DNA from: a virus
Taxonomy: Duplodnaviria; Heunggongvirae; Uroviricota; Caudoviricetes
Reading direction: 5' to 3' (one strand)
DNA length: 25,588 nucleotides
Virus record (IMG/VR): IMGVR_UViG_3300008114_000011
A program made the translations under genes and the position numbers. Numbering within the stretch: position 1 is the stretch's first letter; each line of letters begins with the position of its first letter. A model generated the notes under the pieces. That model was not told the DNA's origin and made no database searches. It was given only the letters and a program-made list of their open reading frames with translations. Below, one piece after another: positions 2,818 to 25,158 of this stretch.

Positions 2818-2953
2818 TGATTCTAAAGGTGATAAACACTATTGTTATAGATGTGCCTGTAAATCTGAGAATTGTACAGAGTGGAGAGAACCGATAACTG
2901 GTTCAGCTATTTGGGTTAATATTGTTAAATGGAAATACGATAAAAATGACTAA
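2816..2953 (+). pseudogene. Headless Cys-rich reading frame (IDSKGDKHYCYRCACKSENCTEWREP..KYDKND)
   Basis: Open frame with CxxC, and its stop overlaps the next ATG (2946). No ATG start found. Confidence 0.3.
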
Positions 2954-3575
2954 ACAAAACTTAATTAGATTTTGGATAAACTACATTAAAAACTTAATCG
3001 CTTTGAATAAAGTTAAGTTTATAATACTAACTGTTGGTATTTTACTTTACTCATTAGGAACTTCAATGGATAAGTCCGTCTGTTTTTATAGAGTAGATAA
3101 ACACTTTATTGATAATGGAATTCATTTTTATGATCTTACTTATTATAAAGATGCTTTAGTTTATGATACTGAACAAAGGCTATTTGAAGATAAAGGAGAG
3201 TTTTTTATAAAGAGTGTTGAATGGAGTGAACTTGGTATAACAACAATGGTATTTGCTTATATTGCTTTTGCTATTGTTTTAATATCTTGCTTTGTTAATG
3301 AAAGTGATATTAATTTAGAACTTAGCCAGGTTCTAAAGGATACTATTTATAATGATTATAAAATCAGTGAAATTGAAGAAGATGGTGATACTAAATATTA
3401 TCACACGTCATACTCTAAAATACTTAGAGTAAAAACAAATAGAAATGGATCATGGGACACATCACACCTTGATAAATTTGTATCAGAAACAACTATGAAG
3501 GAATTCTTCAGTAGAGAAAATTATTATACAAAATCTGAATTAAGAGATATTAAATTAAATAAAATAGGAATATAA
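2946..3575 (+). CDS. Membrane protein with C-terminal tag (ELRDIKLNKIGI)
   Basis: Two hydrophobic segments; tag at the stop. ATG 2946 (MTKQNL) preferred over 2922. Confidence 0.8.
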   Translation: MTKQNLIRFWINYIKNLIALNKVKFIILTVGILLYSLGTSMDKSVCFYRVDKHFIDNGIHFYDLTYYKDALVYDTEQRLFEDKGEFFIKSVEWSELGITTMVFAYIAFAIVLISCFVNESDINLELSQVLKDTIYNDYKISEIEEDGDTKYYHTSYSKILRVKTNRNGSWDTSHLDKFVSETTMKEFFSRENYYTKSELRDIKLNKIGI

Positions 3576-3630
3576 CTCGAAATTAAACATTAGCCTATAT
3601 CTTTTATATAAATTAAAAATATAATTTATT

Positions 3631-3861
3631 ATGGAAAAACACGATTTACACCATGAGTTTGTTGAATATGATGAAAAAATTCATGTTTTAAAAACTACAA
3701 ATAATCATTTTAGAAAATTATTTGACGACTATCACCAAGTAGATAAAGACATTCATAGACTTGAGGCTAATGAAATTTACACTAATGATGAATTAAATTC
3801 TTTAAGAAAAAAGAGATTAAACTTAAAAGATCAATTATTTGGAATGTTAAAAGAGAGTTAA
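3631..3861 (+). CDS. YdcH/DUF465 family protein
   Basis: HDLHHEF.EY..KIH.LK..NNHFRKLFDDYH.VD..I..LE..LRKKRL.LKDQL is a DUF465 pattern, close to the Flavobacterium-type N-terminus MEKHDL.HEF. Confidence 0.8.
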   Translation: MEKHDLHHEFVEYDEKIHVLKTTNNHFRKLFDDYHQVDKDIHRLEANEIYTNDELNSLRKKRLNLKDQLFGMLKES

Positions 3862-3876
3862 AAACTCTCTTTTTTT
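3849..3876 (+). terminator. Intrinsic terminator overlapping the YdcH stop
   Basis: AAAAGAGAGT-TAAAA-ACTCTCTTTTTTT. Confidence 0.75.
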
Positions 3877-3879
3877 ATT

Positions 3880-3889
3880 TTATATATAC
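3880..3889 (+). promoter_or_regulatory. TTATATATAC, variant of the TAATATATA motif
   Basis: One mismatch to the motif; ends 4 nt before ATG 3893. Confidence 0.4.
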
Positions 3890-3892
3890 TCT

Positions 3893-4168
3893 ATGGAAAG
3901 AAAAATAAAACCATATGATGTTCCGGTAGGTGAACCTCTAATACCTAGAAAGAAGAAAATTGCTGATTTGATTGAGAATTCAGATTTACCAGAAGATTTA
4001 TTTAAACCACAAGGTGATAAGTGGACAGCTATACACTTCATTAGAGTGGGTAGTCCATCTGAATATTATTTAAATCAGTGTTTAGATAAATTAAAACAAA
4101 GTGGTATTGATACTTCTTCTGTTTATGAATCAAGAGTATTAAACTTCAAGAATTTTTATTTAAGATAA
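3893..4168 (+). CDS. Hypothetical protein (91 aa)
   Basis: ORF track; follows a terminator and a motif. Confidence 0.75.
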   Translation: MERKIKPYDVPVGEPLIPRKKKIADLIENSDLPEDLFKPQGDKWTAIHFIRVGSPSEYYLNQCLDKLKQSGIDTSSVYESRVLNFKNFYLR

Positions 4169-4222
4169 GAAAATTATTATGAATTTTTTTAAATTTTTAT
4201 TATCTTTATTAAAAATTGAATT

Positions 4223-4378
4223 ATGGCAAAAGATATGGTTAAGATTGATGATAAAGAATTAATCAATAGAATTGAATACTTACAAAGAACAATTAGACAA
4301 TTTAAGGAAATTGGTCAATTACCACCTTTAAATTTAATTAGTGAACTTAATGAAAAAATGAGATTTTTTCAGAAATAA
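4223..4378 (+). CDS. Hypothetical protein (51 aa, MAKDMVKIDDKELINRIEYL..RFFQK)
   Basis: Manual translation; fills the gap; TATCTTTA box at 4201-4208. Confidence 0.65.
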   Translation: MAKDMVKIDDKELINRIEYLQRTIRQFKEIGQLPPLNLISELNEKMRFFQK

Positions 4379-4379
4379 A

Positions 4380-4671: not shown

Positions 4672-5193
4672 ATGAGAATAACAAATATTTTAATTCAATA
4701 TAAAATTCGATCAGTGAGTAGAGTTTTAGTACTCTTAGCCTCATTTACTCCTATTTTATTTGTTATAAATAATTCAAAAGAATATACTATTACAGTAGTT
4801 ATACTACTCATTCTAATTCTAAGTATCAGAGCAATCTTAGATAAATTATCAATGAGTATTTCAGAAAGTGAAACTAGAGAATACTTGAGAATACCAGATT
4901 ATGATGATGAAATATACATGGTCGAAAATATACCATATAAAACATTAGATTTGTTACTAATTAGTTCGATGTATTATAGTGGTACTCAAAATTTTAAAAA
5001 TAAAATTAAAGATAAAAGTTATAAAATTTATAATATCAAGAAAGGTATGAATGATGAATTTTACTATGTAACTTTAAGTGATAAAGATGATCATCTTGGT
5101 ATGTTATTTAACATAAATTGGTTAAAGTACGGAAAATATTTTTATACAAAAAGACAACTAAGAGACGATAAATTAAAAGAATTAGGTATATGA
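4672..5193 (+). CDS. Two-TM membrane protein with C-terminal tag (QLRDDKLKELGI)
   Basis: ORF track; N-terminal hydrophobic helices; tag at the stop. Confidence 0.8.
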   Translation: MRITNILIQYKIRSVSRVLVLLASFTPILFVINNSKEYTITVVILLILILSIRAILDKLSMSISESETREYLRIPDYDDEIYMVENIPYKTLDLLLISSMYYSGTQNFKNKIKDKSYKIYNIKKGMNDEFYYVTLSDKDDHLGMLFNINWLKYGKYFYTKRQLRDDKLKELGI

Positions 5194-5450
5194 GCAATTC
5201 AATGAAAATGACTAGAAATACGGATAAAGTGGAAGATGTAATTTGTCTCAAAACAAAATCTATATTACATGTTGATTGGGGAAATTTCGAAGTTGAAGAA
5301 GGTAAATCCTATAAGAGATTAGTAGAAAAAGATAATTCATCTGATTATTCGTATATTAGATTTGTTTGGTGTTACATGCCTTTTCCTAAAGAAGACTTTG
5401 TTACTTTAAGTGAAATGAGAGATAAAAAAATAACAGGATTAGGTATATGA
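5190..5450 (+). CDS. Small SH3-like beta protein with tag (EMRDKKITGLGI)
   Basis: VICLKT..VEEGKSYK..FVTLSEMRD; ATGA overlap with the previous gene. Confidence 0.75.
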   Translation: MSNSMKMTRNTDKVEDVICLKTKSILHVDWGNFEVEEGKSYKRLVEKDNSSDYSYIRFVWCYMPFPKEDFVTLSEMRDKKITGLGI

Positions 5451-5905
5451 ACTTAAAAATATTATTAAACGAGTGGGTTAACATAATTGATAGGATCAAA
5501 CAAGTTGAGGACTATAAAGTCATCGAAATGAACGATGAAACTATCAAAGTAAATTTTAATTTCAGAAGTAGTTTATTTAGTAAAGAAGAATATAAAAATA
5601 CCGAAAAAGAAATTAAAGATTACTTAGTAAATAACTCAATGTTTCATAAAGATTTTGATATGAAATCTTATTTACCAATGAGAGTGAATGAAATTGAAAA
5701 GACTTTTATTGAAATATTTGGTGGAATAAAGTATATTGATAAATATAGTACAATTTATTTTAATCGAGGTAATTTATCCTACCCATCTCTTCACACCGAA
5801 GAAGAATACATAGTTTATCAAGGTAGTAGATTTATTGTTCAATTTAAACCAGATAGATTTAAACAATATTTAAGAGATAAGAGGTTAAACGAAATAGGAA
5901 TATAA
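5447..5905 (+). CDS. Hypothetical protein with tag (YLRDKRLNEIGI)
   Basis: ORF track; ATGA overlap. Confidence 0.8.
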   Translation: MNLKILLNEWVNIIDRIKQVEDYKVIEMNDETIKVNFNFRSSLFSKEEYKNTEKEIKDYLVNNSMFHKDFDMKSYLPMRVNEIEKTFIEIFGGIKYIDKYSTIYFNRGNLSYPSLHTEEEYIVYQGSRFIVQFKPDRFKQYLRDKRLNEIGI

Positions 5906-6267
5906 TGGATTACAAAGGAAACTTATACACATGGAATGTAACAGACCACTACGGTTGGGAAGTTAGTTTACAAGATTTAAGAGATATTAGATTAAGTAAA
6001 CTCTTAAATGAAAAGTCTGAACAAGATGATAGATTTTTATATAATATTGGATTACACGATAAAGATAATTCAAGAGAAATGGCGACAGCAACATTTTATC
6101 CGAAAGATAAGATATTTATGATAAATTCATTTGATCCATACGAAACCAACAAAAGTGGAATTTTAGTAAGGTTCAAAGCAGAAAACATACAACAATGTGA
6201 GAATATATTACAATTCATTTTAGAACCAAACAACTTAGAAGTATTTAATAAATATAAAATTCGATGA
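5905..6267 (+). CDS. Hypothetical protein with an internal tag copy (DLRDIRLSKLLNE)
   Basis: ORF track; TAATG overlap. Confidence 0.75.
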   Translation: MDYKGNLYTWNVTDHYGWEVSLQDLRDIRLSKLLNEKSEQDDRFLYNIGLHDKDNSREMATATFYPKDKIFMINSFDPYETNKSGILVRFKAENIQQCENILQFILEPNNLEVFNKYKIR

Positions 6268-6497
6268 ATATAGAATTAACAAATGAAACCATAGAGAAGA
6301 TAGAAAAACTTTCTAACTTAGGCGATATAGCAAAAGATTGTATAATAAAAGATATAAGTGAAATTGTTGCTAGATATGTTTGGGAATATAATACACAACA
6401 AACAAGAGATCAAATGAACAACGATATTAATGAATATTTAGATAAATGTTTGATGCCATTTATTAGAGAAGAAAGATTAAAAGAATTAGGATTATGA
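6264..6497 (+). CDS. Hypothetical protein with tag (FIREERLKELGL)
   Basis: ORF track; ATGA overlap. Confidence 0.8.
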   Translation: MNIELTNETIEKIEKLSNLGDIAKDCIIKDISEIVARYVWEYNTQQTRDQMNNDINEYLDKCLMPFIREERLKELGL

Positions 6498-6686: not shown

Positions 6687-6863
6687 TTAGTTATTATCTA
6701 ACACTTTATCAATATTAGCTTCTCTAACTTTAGCTTTGATCCAAGAAGGTTCATTTTCTAATTGATCTTCTGTGATACCTAATTGTTTCATAAATACTTC
6801 TAATAAGTATTCTTTGTTTTCCCATCTGTAAGATGGTCTTTCCATCATTGGTCCGTCTTCCAT
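6687..6863 (-). CDS. Hypothetical protein (58 aa) with tag variant (KVREANIDKVLDNN)
   Basis: Manual translation MEDGPMMERPSYRWENKEYLLEVFMKQLGITEDQLENEPSWIKAKVREANIDKVLDNN; ends at a terminator. Confidence 0.75.
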   Translation of the reverse strand: MEDGPMMERPSYRWENKEYLLEVFMKQLGITEDQLENEPSWIKAKVREANIDKVLDNN

Positions 6864-7373: not shown

Positions 7374-7613
7374 ATGGATTTGAAAAAAACACTTGAAGAG
7401 TTATACCCTGATAGTAAATTGAACGTTAAATCAGTTGAAAGTGGAGACTTTATAAAGGTTGTCGCGGATGGGAAAACTCGTTATTATTTAATTGATAATG
7501 ATAGTTTATATACTTTTGAACCACCAGCTGTTTATTTTCGAAGTGGATCAATACACTATCGAAAGTTCAAATCGTTATTTAGAGAATTAGTATTAAATAA
7601 ACTAGGAATATGA
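7374..7613 (+). CDS. Hypothetical protein with tag (LFRELVLNKLGI)
   Basis: ORF track. Confidence 0.8.
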   Translation: MDLKKTLEELYPDSKLNVKSVESGDFIKVVADGKTRYYLIDNDSLYTFEPPAVYFRSGSIHYRKFKSLFRELVLNKLGI

Positions 7614-8128
7614 GTAAAGAATTGATTCAATTAGAATTATCAAAAGAAACACCAGATTGGTTATTGGTTTCAAAATTAGCAAAAGAAATTCATAACAGTG
7701 AGTCTGAAACTAATACACTTGGTTTCAGAAAAGGAGTTATTAATTTAATAAAGGTTTCCGAATGTAATGAGGAAAGAGTTAAACAAGAACTTATAACATA
7801 TTTCAATACTGAAGAGTATAACTATGTTATTTCAAACCATATAAACAACTATAAAAAATGGGCCAAGTCAGTTGATTTGGATAGTAAATATCATATAGTT
7901 ATAACTTCTAAACCAAATCTAATTGTTACAACAATGACACTTGGTATTGAAATTAATAATTATAATGTGACTGTTTTTCGTGGTCGAGGATATTGGAAAA
8001 GAAATACAGATGGTACAAAAAAACCTATGTCTTTCAAGATAAAAGGAGACACTATTGATATTAAGTTTAATCAAGGTCAACTTAGATCAGATTTAAGAGA
8101 TTTAGCATTAAAATCATTATTAGCATAA
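7610..8128 (+). CDS. Hypothetical protein with tag (DLRDLALKSLLA)
   Basis: ORF track; ATGA overlap. Confidence 0.8.
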   Translation: MSKELIQLELSKETPDWLLVSKLAKEIHNSESETNTLGFRKGVINLIKVSECNEERVKQELITYFNTEEYNYVISNHINNYKKWAKSVDLDSKYHIVITSKPNLIVTTMTLGIEINNYNVTVFRGRGYWKRNTDGTKKPMSFKIKGDTIDIKFNQGQLRSDLRDLALKSLLA

Positions 8129-8129: not shown

Positions 8130-8669
8130 ATGAAAAGAAAAATATATTTATTAATAAATGTTGTAGTTTTCATTGTAACAATTTATCTGGCTAACTTAAT
8201 GGCTAGAGAAACTTCAACACCAATTGGTGCTACTATTGGATTTACATTACTACTTCTTTTAGTAGAAGTAGCAATTAGTTTAATATCTACTATTATAGGA
8301 GCTATTTCAAATTTAATCGACTTAAATAAAATTAGTAGTCCATTTGATTTAATCACACCACCATTTGGATTAATTACGCTCAGATTTAAAAAAATATACT
8401 ATTCAGATCTTGGTTACTTTTGGTGTTATAAAAAAGGTAATTACATAACTATCTATGAACAAAAATTATTTGCGTTGATAAAAATCAGTAAAGTTGATTA
8501 TTATGGTGATATAGAATCTCTAAGAAATAGAATTAAACGTGAAATAGAATCTATATATGAGGATAAACTAAGAGATAAAAATATTAGTGATAAGTTTAAA
8601 AATTGGGATGGGTATATAGATAAAAAATCAGAGCGAGATGATAAGTTGGAAAAATTAGGAATAAAATAA
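8130..8669 (+). CDS. Membrane protein with tag (SERDDKLEKLGIK)
   Basis: Two N-terminal hydrophobic helices; tag at the C-terminus. Confidence 0.8.
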   Translation: MKRKIYLLINVVVFIVTIYLANLMARETSTPIGATIGFTLLLLLVEVAISLISTIIGAISNLIDLNKISSPFDLITPPFGLITLRFKKIYYSDLGYFWCYKKGNYITIYEQKLFALIKISKVDYYGDIESLRNRIKREIESIYEDKLRDKNISDKFKNWDGYIDKKSERDDKLEKLGIK

Positions 8670-8691: not shown

Positions 8692-8883
8692 ATGAATAAA
8701 AGAGAAATACTTAAATATGGTCTAAGTGTCTTTAACAATGAAAAAGATAAGTTTAGACGTTGGCTTAATTCACCAATAATTGCTTTGAATGGAAGAAAAC
8801 CAGTTGAGTTATTCGGATCTCAAGCAGAACTAAATGAGGTTAAGCAAATATTAGATAAAATTGAATATGGAATATACGTTTAG
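8692..8883 (+). CDS. Antitoxin Xre/MbcA/ParS toxin-binding domain protein (DUF2384-like)
   Basis: VFNNEKDKFRRWLNSPIIALNGRKPVELFGS..VKQILDKIEYGIYV matches VFG..WL..P..ALGG..P..LL..V..L.RIE.G; preceded by TAACTTTA at 8679-8686. Confidence 0.8.
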   Translation: MNKREILKYGLSVFNNEKDKFRRWLNSPIIALNGRKPVELFGSQAELNEVKQILDKIEYGIYV

Positions 8884-9244
8884 TGGAAATTTATTTACAT
8901 CACCAGATGATCTAATCGAAGTTAGATTATTTGAAGATTTACCATTTAGTTCACAATATTCAGTTTACACTACTTGGGTAGCGGAAGATATTATATCAGT
9001 TTTAAAAGATGAAGGACTATTAAAACTTGATGGTTTATTTAAGATACATTATGTTAAAATGGAAAAACAACATCTATATGATCTTAATGGAGGTGGTGAT
9101 GTTTTAAAAACTAAACTTGTTACAACCTACAATGTTAGTATAACATATTCACTAGAAGGTACTGGTATAGCTGGTTCTAATCACCAAATAGATGATATGG
9201 AAATGAAAATAAGAGATAAAAAACTAATTAGATTAGGAATATAA
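8867..9244 (+). CDS. Hypothetical protein with tag (KIRDKKLIRLGI)
   Basis: ORF track; ATG 8867 preferred over TTG 8861. Confidence 0.75.
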   Translation: MEYTFSGNLFTSPDDLIEVRLFEDLPFSSQYSVYTTWVAEDIISVLKDEGLLKLDGLFKIHYVKMEKQHLYDLNGGGDVLKTKLVTTYNVSITYSLEGTGIAGSNHQIDDMEMKIRDKKLIRLGI

Positions 9245-9468
9245 TGGAAGAAACTGGACATAAAGATAAGGATGGTAACTGGGTACCAGAGACACCACAA
9301 GCAAAAATTAGAAATAGATTAACTCCATTTTGGACTTTAACAAGTATTCTATCCGAAGATGAATATAAAGATAATCCAGAGATAATGGAAATGGTTACGA
9401 GGTTGGCTAAACAATGTGAGGAATTGAAGCCAATTATTTTAGATTTATTATTACAAACTGAAAAATAA
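9244..9468 (+). CDS. Hypothetical protein with HisKA-like helical hairpin lacking the phospho-His
   Basis: AKIRNRLTPF..IILDLL resembles the HisKA pattern HE[IL]RNPLT..LI.DLL. Confidence 0.7.
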   Translation: MEETGHKDKDGNWVPETPQAKIRNRLTPFWTLTSILSEDEYKDNPEIMEMVTRLAKQCEELKPIILDLLLQTEK

Positions 9469-10076
9469 TGTATGAATTTATGATTGGCACTCTTATAGTA
9501 CTTTCTATGGCATCTGGTGTATTATTTGGAATGGATTGGCTTTTTTGTGATCTTAATAACACTAAATCTCTTTTTAATAAATTATTTAAAAAAGAGAAAA
9601 AAGAAGAGGAGACAAAAGTAGAAAAGAAATCTTATGGTGTAGCAGAAAGGTTCAACGAATTAGATGAATATAAAAACCTACTTATTCAAGTTCTTGATGA
9701 TATATCATTTAGTGGTTATGAGGTTGGTTATAATTACCAAAAGTGGTATATTGAAGAAGGAATTAGTGGTAGTATTATTATAAAGAGAAAATTATCCAAT
9801 TACCGAGATATATATTTTTTAATTAGTTGGGAAATAAAAGATGATCAATTTAAGGTTAGTAACATTCACTTTGGTGATAATAACATTAGATGGAAAGATA
9901 ATAAAGATCTTCATAAATACATGGATATTATTCACTCTATGTATGTTTCTTTACAACAACAAAAAGATAAAACTGTCATTGAGAAATTTAATAAATTTAA
10001 AGATGATGTTGATAGAATCGTATCAAAAGCATCTAAAAGAGATAGTAGAATAAATGATTTATTAGGTGATAATTAA
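9468..10076 (+). CDS. Membrane-anchored protein with tag (SKRDSRINDLLGDN)
   Basis: N-terminal TM helix; tag variant. Confidence 0.8.
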   Translation: MYEFMIGTLIVLSMASGVLFGMDWLFCDLNNTKSLFNKLFKKEKKEEETKVEKKSYGVAERFNELDEYKNLLIQVLDDISFSGYEVGYNYQKWYIEEGISGSIIIKRKLSNYRDIYFLISWEIKDDQFKVSNIHFGDNNIRWKDNKDLHKYMDIIHSMYVSLQQQKDKTVIEKFNKFKDDVDRIVSKASKRDSRINDLLGDN

Positions 10077-10092
10077 AATAAATAATAATATT

Positions 10093-16297: not shown

Positions 16298-16456
16298 ATG
16301 GGTATAAACTTAGTTAGTGTCGAGAGTATAACTTGGACACAAAGAGAAGATAATCAATTAATAGATCTTAAAATAAATTTCATTCCAGAGAAATCTAAAG
16401 AAGAGATATTAGCAGAAGATAGAGATTTAAGAATTGATAACCTTTTAAATAAGTAA
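16298..16456 (+). CDS. Small protein with tag (EDRDLRIDNLLNK)
   Basis: Manual translation MGINLVSVESITWTQRED..; the frame stays open upstream to 16223, so the start is uncertain. Confidence 0.65.
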   Translation: MGINLVSVESITWTQREDNQLIDLKINFIPEKSKEEILAEDRDLRIDNLLNK

Positions 16457-18388: not shown

Positions 18389-18468
18389 GGTCAAGTAATG
18401 CGTAATGAGAAAGTGGTATCTCACCCTTAATGGTCGCATCGTCATAGGTTCGAATCCTATCTTGACCA
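18389..18468 (+). ncRNA. tRNA-like RNA with acceptor and T arms but no anticodon arm
   Basis: GGTCAAG/CTTGACC, ATAGG-TTCGAAT-CCTAT. ATGCG/CGCAT encloses the hairpin TGAGA-AAGTGGTA-TCTCA and TAATGGT. Confidence 0.6.
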
Positions 18469-18470
18469 CT

Positions 18471-18716
18471 ATGAATGAGTATAGAGATTTTATTAAGGAG
18501 TTAGAAAAACTTACAGTTTTACGTAAGTTAGATAACTATTTTTTTATATCTAAAATAAAAAAAGAACTAAATTACAAATATGTATTGGATGAAGATCTAA
18601 TATTAGAAGACTTTATGGAAATATGTCATAAGTATATAGATGATTTAGGTGAAAATGATAAAAACTTAATACTACCTTTACTTAGAGACTTTAAACTAAA
18701 AATGTTAAACATATGA
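18471..18716 (+). CDS. Hypothetical protein with tag (LLRDFKLKMLNI)
   Basis: Start moved to ATG 18471; the 18405 start lies inside the tRNA-like element. Confidence 0.75.
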   Translation: MNEYRDFIKELEKLTVLRKLDNYFFISKIKKELNYKYVLDEDLILEDFMEICHKYIDDLGENDKNLILPLLRDFKLKMLNI

Positions 18717-19350: not shown

Positions 19351-19623
19351 ATGTTTGTAGTTAAAAGAACAGGTGGTTCGTGGGATGATTTTTATACAGA
19401 ATCCCTATTTGTAACCGGATCAGAAGAATTCGCTAAAAAGTATTGTGATAAAGCTAATGAATTCAATAAAAGACTAAAAAAGAGGTTTGGTGAAATTGAT
19501 AGTGAGTTAGAAGATATTGATGATACTGATGTTAGAAGAAATCTACTTTTAGAATGGTGGAGTAAGTATCATACTTTAAGTGATGTGAATGCTTACTCAT
19601 ATGAAGAAATTGAAGTTAGATGA
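19351..19623 (+). CDS. Hypothetical protein
   Basis: ORF track; GGSWDDFY..LFV..A.KY pattern. Confidence 0.8.
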   Translation: MFVVKRTGGSWDDFYTESLFVTGSEEFAKKYCDKANEFNKRLKKRFGEIDSELEDIDDTDVRRNLLLEWWSKYHTLSDVNAYSYEEIEVR

Positions 19624-19880
19624 TTAGACTGAATAAAGGAACCATTCTTGTTTGGAAGGAGAAGGTGGATGGATATAATTGTTTACCTGGTGCTAAAGCC
19701 ATAGTTACTGATGAAGATATAATTTTAGCAGGAAGTTACTGGAAGTCGTCGTCTCATATGGTATCAATTGAATTCATTGATGATCTTAGCAGAGGTCAAG
19801 CTAAAGGTAAATATTTCATACACAACTTTATAACGGTTGATGAATGGAGAGAAAAAAGACTTGATGAATTAGGAGTATGA
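19620..19880 (+). CDS. Small SH3-like protein with tag (EWREKRLDELGV)
   Basis: ORF track; FITVDEWRE. Confidence 0.8.
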   Translation: MIRLNKGTILVWKEKVDGYNCLPGAKAIVTDEDIILAGSYWKSSSHMVSIEFIDDLSRGQAKGKYFIHNFITVDEWREKRLDELGV

Positions 19881-20137
19881 AATTAGTTTGTGTAAATGAT
19901 AAAATCTTGAGAAGAGATAGTATGGGAAATGAGTATCTTAAAAAAGACGACTTCTTAGAAGTTGGTAAAGTTTATGATTTACCTTACTATGAATTAGATA
20001 GATACTTATCATCAAGTTATATTAGATTTTGGTTTGATGATAAAACTGAATATGGTTCTCATAGTTTAATTTTTTCTAAAGAAAACTTTGTGACTTTAGA
20101 AGAATGGAGAGAAATGCAATTAAATAAGATTTTATAA
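19877..20137 (+). CDS. Small SH3-like protein with tag (EWREMQLNKIL)
   Basis: MKLVCVND..LEVGKVYDL..FVTLEEWRE. Confidence 0.8.
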   Translation: MKLVCVNDKILRRDSMGNEYLKKDDFLEVGKVYDLPYYELDRYLSSSYIRFWFDDKTEYGSHSLIFSKENFVTLEEWREMQLNKIL

Positions 20138-20547: not shown

Positions 20548-20754
20548 ATGAGACCTTGTATGTGTAGTACACCGAGAAGACACCCTGAGATTAAGGGATA
20601 TATTTTGATTGCTGATTATCCAGGTAATAGAAGAAAACTTGGAGAATTTGAACCATATACAAGTGGTGAGTTTTCTAAATATCCACACATTTGGAAACCT
20701 GTTTATCACACAGATGTGATTAGAGATAAGAAATTAACTGAATTGGGAATATAA
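20548..20754 (+). CDS. Small protein with tag (VIRDKKLTELGI)
   Basis: ORF track. Confidence 0.75.
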   Translation: MRPCMCSTPRRHPEIKGYILIADYPGNRRKLGEFEPYTSGEFSKYPHIWKPVYHTDVIRDKKLTELGI

Positions 20755-20933
20755 TGAGTGGAAGTTGGTCATATAAATCACCAAATTGTTTTAAATGTGA
20801 TGAGGTGATAACTGGTGAAGATATTTATACTATACCCGCTAAAATTAATGGTCTTAAAACAGAAATAAATGTTACGATTTGTAAGAAATGTTATAGAGAT
20901 TGGAAATTAAAACAAATTGGAATTAATGCTTAA
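20754..20933 (+). CDS. Small CxxC...CxxC zinc-finger protein with tag (CYRDWKLKQIGINA), 59 aa
   Basis: Manual translation MSGSWSYKSPNCFKCDEVITGEDIYTIPAKINGLKTEINVTICKKCYRDWKLKQIGINA; TAATG overlap. Confidence 0.75.
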   Translation: MSGSWSYKSPNCFKCDEVITGEDIYTIPAKINGLKTEINVTICKKCYRDWKLKQIGINA

Positions 20934-21543
20934 ACAATTTTTAGATAATCATAATAACAGTGGTGGTTTTTGTGAGTTAAACTCTAAGTTTAATAACTTA
21001 TCAATACATAGTAATATCTTAAAAATAGAGTTTAAAAAACTTTATACCCATCTTATTATACAGTTTTATGACGAAGGGTTAATAACAGGTGATGATAAAT
21101 CAAATATAAAGATAGATGATTTAAAAGAACTACTTAAAAGGAATAACCATTCAGATTATGAAAATCTAATATTAAATAGTTGGTTTGGTAAGTTAGAATT
21201 TAAAAACTCAGTTAGAATTAGTGGATATATGTATTCTATAATGGAATATTACTTTAATAAATATATTGATACTGTTCTTTATATTGATACAGATTCTATC
21301 TATGTTACTGAGATACAAGATGAAGATTTCATTAAAAGTATTGGAGTACCATATGAGATACATCAAATAAATCAAATCTACTTTATTTCTAAGAAAAGAC
21401 TCTATATAGAAATTAATAATGAGATAGTTAAACGTACCGTATCAAACAAAGTTTGGGAATCAACTAAAGATGTTTATCATAATATGGAAGCAATAATGAA
21501 ATCTAACATAAGAGAAAGAAAACTAAAAGAATTGGGTTTATAA
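20926..21543 (+). CDS. Miniature degenerate family-B DNA polymerase palm-like protein with tag (IRERKLKELGL)
   Basis: IEFKKLYTHLII (motif A-like), LILNSWFG (motif B-like), YIDTDSIYV (motif C) and SKKR. ATG 20926 preferred. Confidence 0.7.
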   Translation: MLKQFLDNHNNSGGFCELNSKFNNLSIHSNILKIEFKKLYTHLIIQFYDEGLITGDDKSNIKIDDLKELLKRNNHSDYENLILNSWFGKLEFKNSVRISGYMYSIMEYYFNKYIDTVLYIDTDSIYVTEIQDEDFIKSIGVPYEIHQINQIYFISKKRLYIEINNEIVKRTVSNKVWESTKDVYHNMEAIMKSNIRERKLKELGL

Positions 21544-21847: not shown

Positions 21848-22060
21848 ATGAAAGATAAATATACAACATACGATAAGTATGGTAAATACTCTTTTGACGA
21901 TGAAGATGGGTATATGACATATGATGGTAAATACCTTTCAAAATATTATGACGCTAAAATATGGTATGAATCAAAACCATCAGAATCAGAGGAAGAAAGA
22001 TTGGCAAGAGAAAAAGCTGAAGCTCGCGATAAAAAACTTAGTGAGTTACTAGGAGAATGA
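21848..22060 (+). CDS. Tyr/Asp-rich small protein with tag (ARDKKLSELLGE)
   Basis: ORF track; internal YDKYGKY / YDGKY repeat. Confidence 0.75.
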   Translation: MKDKYTTYDKYGKYSFDDEDGYMTYDGKYLSKYYDAKIWYESKPSESEEERLAREKAEARDKKLSELLGE

Positions 22061-22332
22061 AGATATTAAGAAGATTAGATATTTCGGAATTACACACTGG
22101 CATGATTGTAGCAAGTGAACAAAATGATGATCATCTATATGAATTAGATTTAAATGAATATCCTAAAATAAAATATAGATCTGTTGCTAAAATAGTAGAT
22201 GGTGAGTTTAAAAAACACAATAGTGATTTTTGGCATAAAACAATTTTTACTGGTTGGGTTGAAACTGAAGAATCTCGAAAAATAAACCCTCAAACAAAAA
22301 GAGAAGATAGACTAAAAGAATTAGGACTATGA
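22057..22332 (+). CDS. Small protein with tag (TKREDRLKELGL)
   Basis: ORF track; ATGA overlap. Confidence 0.8.
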   Translation: MKILRRLDISELHTGMIVASEQNDDHLYELDLNEYPKIKYRSVAKIVDGEFKKHNSDFWHKTIFTGWVETEESRKINPQTKREDRLKELGL

Positions 22333-22583
22333 GAATATCAATTGCTACCAAGATAATTAATGAAATGACTTCTATGACATCAGGATCATTCTATTTATAT
22401 TGCGTAGTAAGTGATATTAAGAAGGAAGTCTATGGATTATATTCTGATAATGATGAAATAGAAACTGAAGAGTTTATTAGTATATGTGAATCATATTTAT
22501 CGGAATATATAAAGAGTGGTGCTTCAGATTTAAGAGATCAATCTATTATAAGAGATATAAGATTATATCTACTCTTTATCTAA
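22329..22583 (+). CDS. Hypothetical protein with a truncated tag (IIRDIRL)
   Basis: ORF track; the last 15 nt overlap the convergent gene. Confidence 0.7.
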   Translation: MRISIATKIINEMTSMTSGSFYLYCVVSDIKKEVYGLYSDNDEIETEEFISICESYLSEYIKSGASDLRDQSIIRDIRLYLLFI

Positions 22584-23025: not shown

Positions 23026-23033
23026 TATTTTTG
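23026..23033 (+). promoter_or_regulatory. -7 box TATTTTTG
   Basis: Matches TAnnTTTG; heads tagged genes. Confidence 0.55.
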
Positions 23034-23056
23034 TATAAAAATAAAGAAATTGGATT

Positions 23057-23299
23057 ATGAGAGATTTCAAAGTAGGTGACGAAGTATCAATCAAATTATT
23101 TGGAGATAATTATGATTTATATAAAGTAACTGAGATATTAGATGAAAAGACATCAAAAGGTCTAACTAAAATTAGACTAATACCAACAGATCCGGATAAA
23201 GCATTTGACGTAAGTAAACATTATGTTGTGAACCAAAATCAGATAACACTTTCAAAAAACCAACTGAGAGAAGAAAAACTTAAACAACTTGGACTATGA
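23057..23299 (+). CDS. KOW/SH3-like small protein with tag (QLREEKLKQLGL)
   Basis: FKVGDEVSIK..YKVTEI. Confidence 0.8.
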   Translation: MRDFKVGDEVSIKLFGDNYDLYKVTEILDEKTSKGLTKIRLIPTDPDKAFDVSKHYVVNQNQITLSKNQLREEKLKQLGL

Positions 23300-23529
23300 A
23301 ATGCCAATCCAAAATAAATGTAAATTGGGTAGATACCCAAGTCCTTATAAAAGGTGAGTGGTATGAATGTGAACCAGCACCAATCATATATGATGTAATC
23401 ACATTCAAACCAGACGAACCATCTTATATAGTAAAATGTGAAGACGGAATGCTCAGAAAGTATAACGCTGATAATTTTTTAACAATATCAGAAGTAAGAG
23501 AAATTAAACTTAAAGAATTAGGAATATAA
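23296..23529 (+). CDS. Small SH3-like protein with tag (EVREIKLKELGI)
   Basis: LIKGEWYEC..YIVKCEDG..NFLTISEVRE. Confidence 0.8.
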   Translation: MKCQSKINVNWVDTQVLIKGEWYECEPAPIIYDVITFKPDEPSYIVKCEDGMLRKYNADNFLTISEVREIKLKELGI

Positions 23530-23571
23530 AAAATATATTTCTAACTTTATACTAAAATAAAATCTATAAAT

Positions 23572-23742
23572 ATGAAAAATAAATCTATATTAGGACCTGT
23601 ATTAATTATATTAATAATCCTAAAAATATTCGGAGTAATTAACTGGTCTTGGTCAATCGTACTAATACCACTTTGGATAGCAATCATCGTTGTCTTCGCT
23701 GGTAACATCATTAAAAGAAATAGAAATTCTAACAACAACTAA
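23572..23742 (+). CDS. Small two-TM phage membrane protein (56 aa)
   Basis: Manual translation MKNKSILGPVLIILIILKIFGVINWSWSIVLIPLWIA..; LK..G.I.WSW..VL.PLW is a recurrent phage TM motif. TAACTTTA at 23542-23549. Confidence 0.8.
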   Translation: MKNKSILGPVLIILIILKIFGVINWSWSIVLIPLWIAIIVVFAGNIIKRNRNSNNN

Positions 23743-23743
23743 A

Positions 23744-23875
23744 ATGAAAGAACTTATATCAATCTCTGTTTATAAAGATGTTATGATTGATGTCAATGAG
23801 ATAGAGGAATTAAAAGAGAAGTTAGCAAATTTGTTAGGTACCGAAACTGATAATATATCTATTGAATTAAAATAA
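23744..23875 (+). CDS. Hypothetical protein (43 aa)
   Basis: Start moved to ATG 23744, just after the TM gene. Confidence 0.6.
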   Translation: MKELISISVYKDVMIDVNEIEELKEKLANLLGTETDNISIELK

Positions 23876-24382
23876 ATGAGAATATACAGATTTATTTCTT
23901 CATTCTCTGAAGAAGAAACTACCATAGGTCTTGATAAATTTGAAAAAGAAACTAAAGACTTTTTAATTGATTTTGCTAATCGTTATGATTTCTTCGATCT
24001 TAGATACGACGGTAAAGTATGTCATTGGAGAGACGGTGATCTATATCTAAGTGTAGGTTTCTGTCCAGAAGAATACGCAATAGAATTTAAAAAATGGGAT
24101 GCTATCATTCACGAAGGTATGGATGGTTTCACCAAAGTAGAAGATATTACCGATGAAGTATTATACGGTAAACACGATATGGAAATATATGGATTCTTAA
24201 AAGAAAATATGATAATTACCTTCGATGATTATATTGAAAACTACATAACAAAAGATATAATCTTAGATAAAATAAACTTATACGGAATAGAGTCGTTGTC
24301 AGAAAATGATAAAAGAATTTTAAATGATGAGCCATATATAAGGTACGTTGATACACTAATAGATGAAGATAATGATTGTTGA
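23876..24382 (+). CDS. Acidic hypothetical protein with a DUF6576-like C-terminal motif
   Basis: ILDKINLYGIESLSENDKRIL resembles ILDKI...G..SL...EK..L. Confidence 0.75.
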   Translation: MRIYRFISSFSEEETTIGLDKFEKETKDFLIDFANRYDFFDLRYDGKVCHWRDGDLYLSVGFCPEEYAIEFKKWDAIIHEGMDGFTKVEDITDEVLYGKHDMEIYGFLKENMIITFDDYIENYITKDIILDKINLYGIESLSENDKRILNDEPYIRYVDTLIDEDNDC

Positions 24383-24394
24383 AATTATACTCTA

Positions 24395-24736
24395 ATGGAA
24401 CATATAGATTGGATTGATACAGATAATATAGTTCTTGCTAATATCACTACATCTAACGCTTATAAAAAGATGATTGGTGATATACAATCTAATAAAATTA
24501 AAACTATTAGATTACTTAAAAATGATGATGCTTATTATTTTAGATATGTAGTTGGTGATGAGATATGTTGGTTTCGATTATCTCATATACCAAATGGTGG
24601 TAAGCCAGATTTCCGTAAAGGTATTTTATATACACATATACATCAGATTTTTGACCAACAATGGAAAATAGACAAACTGAATAATCTATATAAAGAGTTT
24701 GATAGAGACGATAAATTAAATAAATTATTTGAATGA
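24395..24736 (+). CDS. Hypothetical protein with tag (FDRDDKLNKLFE)
   Basis: ORF track. Confidence 0.8.
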   Translation: MEHIDWIDTDNIVLANITTSNAYKKMIGDIQSNKIKTIRLLKNDDAYYFRYVVGDEICWFRLSHIPNGGKPDFRKGILYTHIHQIFDQQWKIDKLNNLYKEFDRDDKLNKLFE

Positions 24737-25158
24737 GTAAGATTTGGCAAGTAGAAATAATGTATAGTGATTTTGAAGGATCACAACTAATAACTATTGG
24801 TCTTTTCACCGATAAAGATAAAGCAAATGAGATTGCTGAAAAATGGAGAACATTCCACAGAACTTATTCAACTATATTAGATGAGCCTGACAATTGGGAT
24901 CCAAAAAGTGATCAATGGTTTGATCATTATGATGATGAATTCATCTGGAAAGAATCTTATCAATATCAAACCTTATTAAATAAGTATGATAAGATTAAAG
25001 ATTTTGATGAAGTGATTGTAACTGAAATGGAATTAAATAAAGACATATTCCTAAACCAATGTTTAATAGATGATGAAGCATTTAGATTAACAGACGACTT
25101 TAAAAGAATTGTAAAAGAGTTTGATAGAGATTATAAAATTAATTCACTTGGTATATAA
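24733..25158 (+). CDS. Hypothetical protein with tag (FDRDYKINSLGI)
   Basis: ORF track; ATGA overlap. Confidence 0.8.
   Translation: MSKIWQVEIMYSDFEGSQLITIGLFTDKDKANEIAEKWRTFHRTYSTILDEPDNWDPKSDQWFDHYDDEFIWKESYQYQTLLNKYDKIKDFDEVIVTEMELNKDIFLNQCLIDDEAFRLTDDFKRIVKEFDRDYKINSLGI

What the first reader, a model, noticed from the sequence alone, without database searches (positions are those of the whole stretch)
2946..25158. A shared C-terminal peptide tag on about 33 unrelated proteins: candidate undescribed protein-addressing system
Seen: by my count 33 ORFs end in [LIFWMV]-R-[DEN]-x-[KR]-[LI]-x-x-[LI]-G-[ILV]-stop or the variant ..[LI]-x-x-[LI]-[LI]-x(0-3). Their stops are at 3575, 5193, 5450, 5905, 6497, 6687(-), 7613, 8128, 8669, 9244, 10076, 11521, 11718, 11939, 13331, 14478, 15123, 15544, 16250, 16456, 18716, 19880, 20137, 20754, 20933, 21543, 22060, 22332, 22583 (truncated), 23299, 23529, 24736 and 25158. 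The carriers are unrelated: membrane proteins, SH3-like barrels, a Zn finger, an ACP-like domain and a PolB-like palm. Codons vary synonymously (Arg AGA/CGA/CGC; Leu TTA/CTA/CTT/TTG/CTC; Gly GGA/GGT), which points to selection on the peptide. The i, i+3/4, i+7 hydrophobic spacing fits an amphipathic helix ending in a Gly cap. Inference: a docking motif for one phage or host hub (a scaffold or compartment, or a protease adaptor acting as a degron for early proteins). Its presence on integral membrane proteins argues against a capsid-packaging signal. I know no named family for this motif.
Basis: partly seen in the sequence, partly recalled or inferred. Interest (0 to 1): 0.92.

Follow-up and report, generated by a model that had tools for sequence, protein, structure and literature searches.

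The report
Shared C-terminal helix tag, huge phage
About a third of the small genes in this piece of an uncultured giant phage of Bacteroidota encode otherwise unrelated proteins that end in the same ten-residue helix (R-D/E-x-K-L-x-x-L-G-I); it is conserved as a peptide, looks like an address or degradation label, and its most plausible but unproven reader is the phage's own Clp protease.

Summary
All 33 listed ORFs end in the motif. The 77 kb genome piece holds 57 carriers where about 1 is expected by chance. This scan had already reported the same tag in neighbouring windows of this genome and similar tails in other huge phages.

The constraint is on the peptide. Codons inside the tag follow genome-wide usage, and a 37-43% GC relative keeps the peptide with different Leu codons. 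The x positions vary freely. Diverged homologues conserve the tag better than the body.

Carriers are small ORFans (median about 104 aa) in about 50 sequence clusters. They lie in arrays with Bacteroidota-type promoter boxes. In most membrane carriers the tail is predicted to be cytoplasmic.

The tag marks one clade of huge phages: 106 of 962 ORFs in the complete 642 kb genome LR756502.1. A sister clade, LR756504.1, uses a variant, R-K-x-R-I-x-x-L. Two other huge phages have none.

New here: the six tail-bearing genomes of 436 kb or more all encode an N-domain-less ClpC, true ClpP and ClpS. The two tail-less genomes lack ClpP and ClpS. This makes a phage Clp protease the leading candidate reader, at about 30%, and it is unproven. 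One strain pair also shows a whole-gene indel by crossover between two tag-coding sequences.

The parts
2946..3575 (+). carrier ORF (209 aa, 2 TM), tail ...SELRDIKLNKIGI*
4672..5193 (+). carrier ORF (173 aa, 2 TM), tail ...QLRDDKLKELGI*
5190..5450 (+). carrier ORF (86 aa, SH3-like module), tail ...EMRDKKITGLGI*
5447..5905 (+). carrier ORF (152 aa), tail ...YLRDKRLNEIGI*
6264..6497 (+). carrier ORF (77 aa), tail ...FIREERLKELGL*
6687..6863 (-). weak variant on the opposite strand (58 aa), ...VREANIDKVLDNN*
   Evidence: fails the stricter pattern with K/R/Q at position 3
7374..7613 (+). carrier ORF (79 aa), tail ...LFRELVLNKLGI*
7610..8128 (+). carrier ORF (172 aa), tail ...DLRDLALKSLLA*
8130..8669 (+). 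carrier ORF (179 aa, 2 TM), tail ...ERDDKLEKLGIK*
8867..9244 (+). carrier ORF (125 aa), tail ...KIRDKKLIRLGI*
9468..10076 (+). carrier ORF (202 aa, N-terminal TM), tail ...KRDSRINDLLGDN*
11054..11521 (+). carrier ORF (155 aa), tail ...RRDNKLNELLK*
11518..11718 (+). carrier ORF (66 aa), tail ...DIRNSQLEKLGI*
11715..11939 (+). carrier ORF (74 aa, SH3-like module), tail ...ELREKKLSDIGL*, followed by a promoter box
12984..13331 (+). carrier ORF (115 aa), tail ...NRDIKLNDLLNES*
14221..14478 (+). carrier ORF (85 aa), tail ...ELRDIKLNEIL*
14893..15123 (+). carrier ORF (76 aa), tail ...NRDVKINQIINK*; the whole gene is absent in strain contig L141
15290..15544 (+). carrier ORF (84 aa), tail ...QRDLKLRKLGINK*
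16155..16250 (+). doubtful short ORF (31 aa from ATG, 62 aa stop to stop), tail ...LLRNNRIKELGIT*
   Evidence: not called as a gene on identical public contigs
16298..16456 (+). carrier ORF (52 aa), tail ...DRDLRIDNLLNK*
18405..18716 (+). carrier ORF (103 aa), tail ...LLRDFKLKMLNI*
19620..19880 (+). carrier ORF (86 aa, SH3-like module), tail ...EWREKRLDELGV*
19877..20137 (+). carrier ORF (86 aa, SH3-like module; the protein modelled), tail ...EWREMQLNKIL*
20548..20754 (+). carrier ORF (68 aa), tail ...VIRDKKLTELGI*
20754..20933 (+). carrier ORF (59 aa, CxxC...CxxC), tail ...YRDWKLKQIGINA*
20926..21543 (+). carrier ORF (205 aa, contains YIDTDS), tail ...NIRERKLKELGL*, followed by a promoter box
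21848..22060 (+). carrier ORF (70 aa), tail ...ARDKKLSELLGE*
22057..22332 (+). carrier ORF (91 aa), tail ...KREDRLKELGL*
22329..22583 (+). carrier ORF (84 aa), degenerate tail ...IIRDIRLYLLFI*
23057..23299 (+). carrier ORF (80 aa), tail ...QLREEKLKQLGL*
23296..23529 (+). carrier ORF (77 aa, SH3-like module), tail ...EVREIKLKELGI*
24395..24736 (+). carrier ORF (113 aa), tail ...DRDDKLNKLFE*
24733..25158 (+). carrier ORF (141 aa), tail ...DRDYKINSLGI*, followed by a promoter box

Best explanation
The tail is a portable, gene-encoded recognition peptide. It is a 12-14-residue amphipathic C-terminal helix: an N-cap S/T/D, a hydrophobic residue, then R-[DE]-x-[KR]-[LI]-x-x-[LI]. It closes either with a Gly cap and a terminal Ile/Leu/Val carboxylate (G-I-COOH) or with a second hydrophobic residue plus 1-4 polar residues. 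All conserved residues (hydrophobic -1, R0, K3, L4, L7, L8/I9) fall on one face of the helix, and the other face varies freely. The helix is appended to the cytoplasmic ends of dozens of unrelated, small, fast-evolving proteins that are expressed from host-type promoters, and it lets one partner recognise all of them. My leading candidate for that partner is the phage's own Clp machinery: a host-derived ClpC that has lost its regulatory N-domain but keeps the ClpP-docking VGF loop, together with phage ClpP (1-3 copies) and ClpS. The tail would then be a degron that clears early proteins on schedule, or a tether that lets carriers deliver bound host targets to the protease. Shown: the motif, its position, selection on the peptide, its clade distribution, and the co-occurrence with Clp genes. 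Inferred: that it binds anything, and what it binds. Sub-probabilities: a common-partner address tag of some kind about 0.6; ClpC/ClpP specifically about 0.3.
For: Position and excess:
- 57 carriers in 77 kb against about 1 expected.
- 106 of 962 ORFs in LR756502.1 against 1.0 expected.

Selection on the peptide:
- Codon use for R, L, K, D and E inside the tag equals genome-wide use.
- A 37-43% GC relative encodes the same peptide with CTG/CTC/CTA Leu codons.
- 47 of 53 homologues in relatives keep the tag. In pairs under 60% identical, the 8 core positions are 57% identical against 37% for the body (Wilcoxon p = 5e-7).

The tag is an add-on:
- The SH3-like body module occurs without the tail in other lineages, for example P0008, P0011, P0024, P0035, P0127 and P0146.

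Structure and topology:
- The tail is modelled as a helix at pLDDT about 95.
- 177 of 198 GI-type tails stop exactly at the final hydrophobic residue. The GGA Gly-codon preference is the same with and without a coupled downstream start.
- A crude positive-inside estimate puts the tail in the cytoplasm in 7 of 9 TM carriers.
- Host-type TAnnTTTG boxes: 31 intergenic on the gene strand against 7 on the other strand.

Clp link:
- N-less ClpC (AAA + UVR + AAA_2 + D2-small, no Clp_N, VGF loop) is in 10 of 11 tail-bearing genomes. True ClpP is in 8 of 11 and ClpS in 8 of 11. All three are in each of the six tail-bearing genomes of 436 kb or more.
- The sister clade LR756504.1 has a co-varying tail, R-K-x-R-I-x-x-L (64 ORFs), and also has ClpC, three ClpP matches and ClpS.
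- LR756501.1 shares as many proteins with LR756502.1 as LR756504.1 does (183 against 178). It has no tails, no ClpP, no ClpS, and a ClpC-like protein without the ClpP loop.
- An unbiased screen asked for LR756502.1 proteins present in the tail-bearing LR756504.1 and absent from both tail-less genomes. It returned 42 of 913, among them two ClpP, ClpS, PrkA, DUF444 and PF05618.

Literature: the ClpC N-domain represses activity and filters substrates. Its deletion gives planar hexamers that bind ClpP, and it lets an activated ClpC degrade GFP-ssrA (PMC12583610).
Against: - No binding or degradation has been observed.
- ClpP and ClpS are missing from three tail-bearing contigs that CheckV rates 91-95% complete (281-385 kb). 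Either these are fragments, or phage ClpP/ClpS are not required.
- LR756508.1 has a ClpC with an IGF loop but no tails, so ClpC alone does not predict tails.
- The tail-bearing genomes form only two clades, so the co-occurrence rests on few independent events. Most other genes returned by the screen are metabolic.
- Known Clp degrons are unstructured, whereas this tail is predicted helical.
- The LL-type tails carry 0-4 extra residues, so a fixed terminal carboxylate cannot be essential for all of them.
- The window's own phage is a fragment (CheckV rates an apparently equivalent 78 kb IMG/VR record, not aligned here, at 24% complete). Its Clp genes could not be checked.
Confidence: 0.55

Rival explanations
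1. The tail is an address tag, but the reader is not Clp. It could be another phage or host hub, such as RNA polymerase, the ribosome, a clamp, a chaperone or a compartment scaffold. In that case the Clp genes merely mark the same clade.
For: The co-occurrence with Clp genes rests on two clades, and ClpP and ClpS are not universal in tail-bearing contigs. Most proteins of these phages have no known family, so an unrecognised reader could easily be hidden among them.
Against: No alternative candidate survived testing. PrkA/DUF444 is absent from 7 of 11 tail-bearing genomes. The 160-aa/157-aa pair is a probable HAD_SAK_2-type phosphatase (by resemblance) plus a Nudix-box protein (by eye; neither is a Pfam hit of its own). 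The 216-aa protein is found in only 2 genomes. Multi-module SH3-like proteins are not encoded by tail-bearing phages. The sequence does not fit the clamp motif QL[SD]LF or a PIP box, by inspection.
Confidence: 0.3
2. The conserved element is really the DNA at gene junctions. It would be a recombination linker that lets whole genes be gained, lost or swapped in frame, or a translation-initiation region for the next gene. The peptide would then be a passenger.
For: - One clean case: two whole genes (L096 11770-12251) are absent in strain L097, and both alignment blocks end inside a shared 36-nt tag-coding repeat plus ATATGAAAG.
- Strain variants differ by whole genes at junctions.
- Tagged genes are more often followed by an overlapping start: 30/51 against 22/77, Fisher p = 0.0009.
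- The final Ile codon ATA is enriched where the ATGA overlap exists.
Against: - Synonymous sites are not constrained.
- Leu alternates between TTR and CTN, and Arg between AGA and CGN.
- Substitutions are conservative for amino acids (D/E, K/R, L/I), while the x positions vary freely.
- The motif is always in frame and never on the other strand.
- 21 of 51 tagged genes have no overlapping start.
- Only 1 of 8 distinct strain indels is a tag-to-tag crossover.
Confidence: 0.07
3. The tail has no specific partner. It would be a generic structural cap (a solubility or stability helix for young ORFans) or a self-association helix in the manner proposed for SHOCT.
For: It is a short amphipathic helix with a capping motif, modelled with high confidence next to the SH3-like body. 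SHOCT is a comparable short C-terminal module on many architectures, and its function is also unknown (PMC3581485).
Against: An invariant Arg and a fixed register of K, L, L, G, I across about 50 unrelated bodies, including membrane proteins and a 763-aa protein, is more than a generic cap needs. The sister clade changes position 1 from acidic to basic in all its carriers together, which is what a change in a shared reader predicts. A 12-residue helix is too short for a stable coiled coil; this is general knowledge, not tested here.
Confidence: 0.1
4. The tail acts as a nascent peptide inside the ribosome. It would slow termination and so promote re-initiation on the tightly packed next gene in a host phylum that rarely uses Shine-Dalgarno sequences.
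For: Tails are enriched upstream of overlapping or adjacent starts. The constraint is on the peptide and sits at gene junctions, as with viral 2A peptides.
Against: The distance from the motif to the stop codon varies by 0-5 residues, and a third to nearly half of tails (34% GI-type, 44% LL-type) have no start within 12 nt. Tails also occur at operon ends directly before promoter boxes and on isolated opposite-strand genes. Helix capping features point to a folded element on the finished protein.
Confidence: 0.05
5. The tail is a virion-packaging signal that loads the proteins into the capsid for injection.
For: Huge phages package many proteins. Encapsulins and microcompartments use short terminal helices to load cargo.
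Against: Carriers include integral membrane proteins. They lie in arrays with host-type promoter boxes, away from recognisable structural genes. A different, N-terminal tag is already the candidate packaging signal.
Confidence: 0.04

Closest known systems
C-terminal Clp degrons and tethers: the ssrA tag (..ALAA-COOH), the MuA C-terminus (RRKKAI-COOH) and the SspB XB peptide (LRVVK-COOH). These sequences are recalled from memory.
   Same: These are short peptides at the extreme C-terminus that end in hydrophobic residues with a free carboxylate. They work on any protein body and are read by one AAA+ unfoldase. The genomes here encode such an unfoldase and its peptidase.
   Different: The tail is gene-encoded on 10-30% of the proteome rather than added by tmRNA or present on single proteins. 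It is predicted helical, with an invariant Arg 9-10 residues from the end. No degradation has been shown.
SHOCT domain (Pfam PF09851; PMC3581485)
   Same: SHOCT is a short, mostly C-terminal helical module found on many unrelated architectures, including membrane proteins. Its function is unknown. The T-x-E-E-[FW] lead-in seen in some carriers resembles it.
   Different: SHOCT is about 30 residues with two helices and a conserved Gly and Glu. No carrier matches the Pfam model even at E <= 10. The tail is one helix and is confined to one phage clade.
Sliding-clamp-binding C-termini of phage T4 gp43, gp33 and gp55
   Same: Several unrelated phage proteins dock on one phage hub through a short C-terminal peptide.
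   Different: T4 has three carriers, not dozens. The sequence pattern differs, and the carriers here are ORFans rather than replication or transcription proteins.
Capsid-targeting sequence of T4 internal proteins; encapsulin and microcompartment cargo peptides
   Same: These are portable terminal peptides that address unrelated proteins to one destination.
   Different: The T4 sequence is N-terminal and is cleaved off. The membrane carriers and early-type promoters here argue against packaging.
F-box / PRANC C-terminal modules of poxvirus ankyrin proteins
   Same: Many different viral proteins share a C-terminal module that plugs them into one proteolysis machine and turns them into substrate adaptors.
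   Different: That system is eukaryotic, uses a module of about 40-50 residues, and docks on host SCF ligase. The likeness is by analogy only.

Membership tests
SHOCT (PF09851) | Match to the Pfam model | tested here: not met
   No SHOCT hit for 10 carriers with extended tails at E <= 10, nor in 150 further carriers at E <= 0.001.
SHOCT (PF09851) | About 30 residues forming two helices joined by a conserved Gly loop | tested here: not met
   The model shows a single helix, residues 74-85, following a beta strand. The conserved core is 10 residues.
Clp C-terminal degron or tether | Lies at the extreme C-terminus and ends in hydrophobic residues | tested here: met
   The core starts 9-13 residues before the stop in 54 of 72 gene-strand matches. 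177 of 198 GI-type tails end exactly at I/L/V.
Clp C-terminal degron or tether | A cognate Clp unfoldase and peptidase are available in the same cell | tested here: met
   Phage ClpC with a VGF loop is in 10 of 11 tail-bearing genomes and ClpP in 8 of 11. Bacteroidota hosts have a ClpC 65-74% identical to it. This was not verifiable for the window's own fragmentary genome.
Clp C-terminal degron or tether | The peptide is bound by the unfoldase and confers ATP-dependent degradation | not testable with these tools
   This needs biochemistry.
ssrA (tmRNA) tagging | The tag is added co-translationally by tmRNA | tested here: not met
   The tail is encoded in each gene. Clade A genomes have no tmRNA above the Rfam threshold.
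T4-type capsid-targeting sequence | N-terminal leader removed by the prohead protease | tested here: not met
   The motif is C-terminal in every case.
Clamp-binding motif (QL[SD]LF, or PIP box Qxx[LIM]xx[FY][FY]) | Consensus sequence | tested here: not met
   By inspection of 50 aligned tails: there is no Gln and no aromatic pair. Only the 1-4-7 spacing is similar.
DNA-level cassette site (attC-like site or regulatory junction) | Conservation of nucleotides beyond what the peptide requires | tested here: not met
   Codon usage inside the tag equals the background for R, L, K, D and E. Different codons are used in a higher-GC relative. Exception: Gly GGA and Ile ATA are enriched.

The most novel reading that the evidence does not exclude
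A clade of huge phages runs its own degron code. A tenth to a third of its proteins, all small accessory ORFans, carry a genome-encoded C-terminal helix that is read by a phage-encoded, deregulated (N-domain-less) ClpC with phage ClpP. The phage can then clear its early proteins on schedule, or use them as adaptors (in the manner of PROTACs) that drag host proteins into the protease. The sister clade has co-evolved a charge-swapped version of the code.
Probability: 0.25. Interest if true: 0.9.

Novelty: new variant of a known kind. Interest (0 to 1): 0.8.

Why it matters
Huge phages carry hundreds of small genes of unknown function. A single label shared by 10-30% of them is a rare handle on that dark matter. 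Finding its reader would assign a common step (location, timing or destruction) to more than a hundred proteins per genome at once.

It would also be a natural, portable degron or tether usable in Bacteroidota.

The tag is practical too. It marks genuine coding ORFs among tiny ORFans, defines a phage clade, and shows how shared gene ends allow whole-gene exchange.

Tried and rejected
- Megablast of the window against 50,697 phage records: no match.
- Pfam and PHROGs on carriers gave nothing meaningful.
- Pfam on the 150 longest carriers from relatives gave only DUF6011 (4 members) and a few single hits. The dCMP deaminase hits were false tags, because a natural ...LRDAGVEIV... C-terminus fits my loose pattern.
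- A word-based homologue search with one carrier found 2 proteins.
- Foldseek against PDB with the carrier model gave only weak SH3-like rows, none at E <= 0.001.
- Complex prediction with the phage ClpC monomer (alignment A4) and a GI-type carrier (A5) returned no verdict: score 0.01, controls not run. This counts neither for nor against binding.
- PrkA + DUF444 is rejected as a reader: it is absent from 7 of 11 tail-bearing genomes.
- Two candidates from the screen are rejected. The 216-aa protein occurs in only 2 genomes. The 160/157-aa pair is a probable HAD_SAK_2-type phosphatase plus a Nudix-box protein.
- Multi-module SH3-like proteins are rejected as a multivalent hub: none is encoded in LR756502.1 or in this genome.
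- tmRNA link: clade A has no tmRNA. LR756504.1 has one, but ARAGORN found no tag. A stop-to-stop frame ends ...APVEMAVAA, an ordinary ssrA-like end rather than the tail.
- Relatives cannot be drawn for a virus record.
- The Clp content of the window's own phage could not be checked, because the contigs are fragments or not held.
- Literature searches for the motif and for phage-encoded ClpP/ClpS function found nothing specific.

Full report
OBSERVATION

The core R-[DEN]-x-x-[LI]-x-x-[LI] occurs 38 times in the three + frames of the window. Of these, 32 lie 9-12 residues before a stop, and no tail on the - strand has it.

The window is G000:C1:5390-30977 (minus strand) of a 77,220-nt virus record. 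In that record 57 of 187 greedy ORF calls end in the tail. Only 18 other core matches lie anywhere else in ORFs of the gene strand, so about one C-terminal match is expected by chance.

Three of the 33 are weak:
- 6687(-) lacks the basic residue at position 3.
- 22583 ends LYLLFI.
- 16250 belongs to a 31-aa ATG ORF that gene callers skipped on identical public contigs.

IS IT THE PEPTIDE OR THE DNA?

Inside the tag, codon choice for Arg, Leu, Lys, Asp and Glu matches genome-wide usage. For Leu the observed/expected counts are TTA 51/48.5, CTA 11/11.5, CTT 12/14.9 and TTG 10/8.4. Only Gly GGA and Ile ATA are enriched.

A related 344 kb contig with 37-43% GC encodes the same peptide with CTG, CTC and CTA Leu codons and with AGG or CGN Arg codons. 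Substitutions are conservative for amino acids (D/E/N, K/R/Q, L/I/V), while positions 2, 5 and 6 take almost any residue.

Homologues of the carriers in relatives keep the tag in 47 of 53 cases, and the rest carry near-variants or a fusion. In pairs under 60% identical, the eight core positions are 57% identical against 37% for the body (p = 5e-7).

Across 387 distinct tails there are two closing forms:
- 198 end in G-[ILV], and 177 of those stop exactly there.
- 180 end in a second hydrophobic residue plus 0-4 mostly polar residues.

The GGA preference is the same whether or not a downstream start is coupled. The ATA preference is stronger when the ATGA overlap exists. The junction therefore shapes only the last codon.

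Tagged genes are followed by overlapping starts more often than untagged ones (30/51 against 22/77, p = 0.0009). Even so, 21 of 51 are not, and several tails sit directly before promoter boxes.

I conclude that selection acts on the peptide. DNA-level or ribosome-level roles are at most secondary.

THE CARRIERS

With tails removed, the 57 carriers form 50 BLASTP clusters. Pfam and PHROGs recognise essentially none of them. The same holds for the 150 longest carriers from relatives. The median length of 291 carriers from relatives is 104 aa.

About ten carriers share one SH3-like body (MKVVCI...LTxGKxYEV...DDxG...RF). A profile of that body without the tail finds 2,746 representative proteins. 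Among them are tail-less single modules and tandem arrays from other lineages. The tail is therefore an add-on to this module and not part of the fold.

AlphaFold2 on this family gives a beta barrel followed by a helix over residues 74-85, with pLDDT about 95. Foldseek gives only weak SH3 matches.

On a helical wheel the hydrophobic residue at -1, R0, K3, L4, L7 and L8/I9 share one face, and the variable positions lie on the other. L-x-x-L-G-I fits a Schellman-type C-cap. Both points are my own reading.

Nine carriers have hydrophobic segments. A crude positive-inside estimate puts the tail in the cytoplasm in seven of them. The other two are homologues of one of the seven, so their call is unreliable.

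The arrays contain 31 intergenic TAnnTTTG boxes on the gene strand against 7 on the other. From memory, this is the Bacteroidota sigma-A -7 element. It points to host-polymerase, early-type transcription.

DISTRIBUTION

The 763-aa carrier of this genome has tagged orthologues in the complete uncultured phage genomes LR745206.1 (634,780 bp) and LR756502.1 (642,428 bp). A degenerate DNA pattern for the tail hits 88 stretches of IMG/VR, many on contigs of 240-483 kb.

I fetched four complete genomes and counted tails:

| Genome | Size | Tails found | Expected by chance |
|---|---|---|---|
| LR756502.1 | 642 kb | 106 of 962 ORFs | 1.0 |
| LR756504.1 | 636 kb | 64 of the variant R-K-x-[KR]-I-x-x-L, plus 8 of the standard form | 0.5 |
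| LR756501.1 | 735 kb | 0 | - |
| LR756508.1 | 484 kb | 1 | - |

In LR756502.1 the tails are densest at the two ends of the record. A profile of 50 tails gives 60 and 70 matches in the first clade, 1 in LR756504.1, and 0 in the two tail-less genomes.

LR756502.1 shares 178 proteins with LR756504.1, 183 with the tail-less LR756501.1, and 38 with LR756508.1. LR756501.1 is therefore a fair tail-less relative.

SEARCH FOR A READER

All tail-bearing genomes I could test encode a ClpC-type unfoldase of about 705 aa. It has AAA, AAA_lid_9, UVR, AAA_2 and ClpB_D2-small domains, no Clp_N domain, a short acidic/basic N-terminal extension, and a G-V-G-F ClpP-docking loop. It is 65-74% identical to ClpC of Bacteroidota, so it is host-derived.

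Most of these genomes also encode one to three true ClpP (Pfam E from 1e-54 to 1e-78).

I then ran an unbiased screen for LR756502.1 proteins present in LR756504.1 but absent from both tail-less genomes. It returned 42 of 913:
- Proteolysis-related: two ClpP, a ClpS adaptor, PrkA with its DUF444 partner, and a PF05618 protease-like protein.
- Nucleotide and RNA metabolism: an RNase R-like RNB protein (Pfam), a methyltransferase, an LMW phosphatase and a PD-(D/E)XK nuclease, plus RNR small subunit and NAMPT named only by eye from their N-termini, and a HAD-like/Nudix-box pair.

Testing these across 11 tail-bearing genomes gave:

| Candidate | Present in tail-bearing genomes |
|---|---|
| ClpC | 10 of 11 |
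| ClpP | 8 of 11 |
| ClpS | 8 of 11 |
| PrkA | 4 of 11 (rejected) |

The six tail-bearing genomes of 436 kb or more have ClpC, ClpP and ClpS together. The shortfalls are all in contigs of 242-385 kb, which may be incomplete whatever CheckV estimates.

Neither tail-less genome has a true ClpP or a ClpS. The ClpC-like protein of LR756501.1 keeps an N-domain but lacks both the M-domain and the ClpP loop. LR756508.1 has a ClpC with an IGF loop but no tails.

Published work on S. aureus ClpC shows that the N-domain holds the enzyme in a resting state and filters substrates. Its removal gives planar hexamers that bind ClpP, and it lets an activated mutant degrade GFP-ssrA (PMC12583610). A naturally N-less phage ClpC is thus expected to be adaptor-independent and open to C-terminal tags.

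This is circumstantial. It rests on two tail-bearing clades and two tail-less genomes. A structure prediction of ClpC monomer with a carrier gave no verdict and counts neither way.

I put the probability that the tail is a common-partner tag at about 0.6, and that ClpC/ClpP is the partner at about 0.3.

A DNA-LEVEL SIDE EFFECT

Public contigs 99-100% identical to this genome differ by whole genes.

In one case two adjacent genes (L096 11770-12251) are missing in L097. The two alignment blocks overlap by 36 nt, which is the tag-coding sequence plus ATATGAAAG. This is a crossover between two tails that leaves intact genes on both sides.

Inside the window:
- The untagged 300-aa gene at 10106-11008 is deleted from within the preceding tail to the next start codon in L137 and L144. 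In L141 a different gene replaces it.
- The tagged gene 14893-15123 is absent in L141.

Only one of eight distinct indels is tail-to-tail. Shared tails therefore help gene flux but do not explain the motif.

COMPARISON WITH KNOWN SYSTEMS

By function the nearest are the C-terminal Clp degrons and tethers (ssrA, MuA, SspB XB). By form the nearest is the SHOCT domain. The T4 clamp-binding tails and the capsid-targeting sequence are looser analogies.

The tail is not a SHOCT member: there is no HMM match at E <= 10 and it has one helix rather than two. It is not tmRNA-derived either, since clade A has no tmRNA.

I found no description of the tail or of a phage Clp degron in the searchable literature. 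A jumbo-phage survey notes scattered phage ClpP, ClpS, ClpA and ClpX without linking them to a tag (PMC7824862).

This scan had already reported the same tag in adjacent windows of this genome (e1-1838153, e1-1930223). It had also reported analogous tails elsewhere (e1-1616187, e1-5384964, e1-1676356) and N-less phage ClpC (e1-1835133). I saw the ClpC notes only after finding ClpC independently. What I add is the link between the two, the tail-less relatives, and the tag-to-tag crossover.

VERDICT

The feature is real, striking and selected as a peptide. It is a new variant of a known kind, the terminal address or degron peptide.

Noticed in passing
window 1594, 1612, 6912, 7361, 11023, 11944, 18213, 21554, 23026, 25169 (start of each 8-mer): TAnnTTTG boxes, mostly T(T)ATATTTGTA, lie in intergenic gaps 10-30 nt upstream of start codons. 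Across the 77 kb piece there are 31 intergenic copies on the gene strand and 7 on the other. They look like the Bacteroidota sigma-A -7 element, which suggests host-polymerase transcription and a Bacteroidota host.
   Followed up: partly
window 10069-11054; 14885-15120; 14070-14297: Contigs 96-100% identical from other samples differ by whole genes. The 300-aa gene 10106-11008 is absent in L137 and L144 and replaced by a 119-aa DUF1573-like gene in L141. Gene 14893-15123 is absent in L141. A 226-nt deletion in L139 truncates 13719-14228 and removes the start of 14221-14478.
   Followed up: yes
L096:11741-12254 against L097:11741-11776 (about 1 kb beyond the end of the 77 kb record): Two adjacent tagged genes are present in one strain and absent in another. 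The breakpoint lies inside the 36-nt tag-coding repeat, so this is a crossover between two tails.
   Followed up: yes
window 19877-20137 and about 9 other ORFs of the 77 kb record (L001-L005), three or four of them in this window; alignments A2 and A3: A small SH3-like module (MKVVCI..LTxGKxYEV..DDxG..RF) has 2,746 representative relatives in public data. Some are proteins with up to 16 tandem copies and no tail (P0003-P0007). It has no Pfam family.
   Followed up: partly
window 20926-21543: A 205-aa carrier contains LYIDTDSIYV, which resembles motif C of family B DNA polymerases. The protein is far too short to be a polymerase and has no Pfam match.
   Followed up: no
window 18254-18335 (+): ARAGORN calls a tRNA-like gene with a four-base anticodon (taag). 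It lies just downstream of the three-gene block on the opposite strand (16475-18162), where GC skew inverts.
   Followed up: no
L146:238-2358 (LR756502.1 440544-442664) and orthologues L145, L147, L148: A phage ClpC without the N-domain: about 50 residues of acidic then basic extension, a UVR M-domain and a GVGF ClpP loop. It is 65-74% identical to Bacteroidota ClpC and very common in freshwater metagenomes, where more than 120 clusters are over 90% identical.
   Followed up: yes
LR756502.1 440128-440517 and the same position in L145, L147, L148: The gene directly upstream of clpC is conserved. It ends in a tag-like ERR-[DE]-x-I-[IL]-[DN]-[DK]-[ILV]-L-N followed by 7-11 extra residues. It may be a partner or regulator of ClpC.
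   Followed up: no
LR756502.1 273831-277142; 205052-205333; 242766-243170: PrkA (AAA_PrkA + PrkA_C, E = 1e-167) with DUF444, a ClpS homologue and a PF05618 protease-like protein are encoded by this huge phage and by LR756504.1. They are absent from the tail-less LR756501.1 and LR756508.1.
   Followed up: partly
L334:1501-1857 (-) in LR756504.1; L333:1501-1944 in LR756508.1: Phage tmRNA genes score above the Rfam threshold. In LR756504.1 a stop-to-stop frame reads ...NKKLNDNVNSFEQSILNELFAPVEMAVAA, a long tag with an ordinary ssrA-like end. For LR756508.1 ARAGORN gives GRRKPLSW. The clade that carries the window's tail has no tmRNA.
   Followed up: partly
L003 and L004 (genome 42-65 kb, outside the window): There are large tRNA arrays: 10 genes called in L003 and 27 in L004 (the two loci overlap by 2 kb, so 4 are counted twice; about 33 distinct), with many duplicated isoacceptors. 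GIY-YIG-like genes are interspersed.
   Followed up: no
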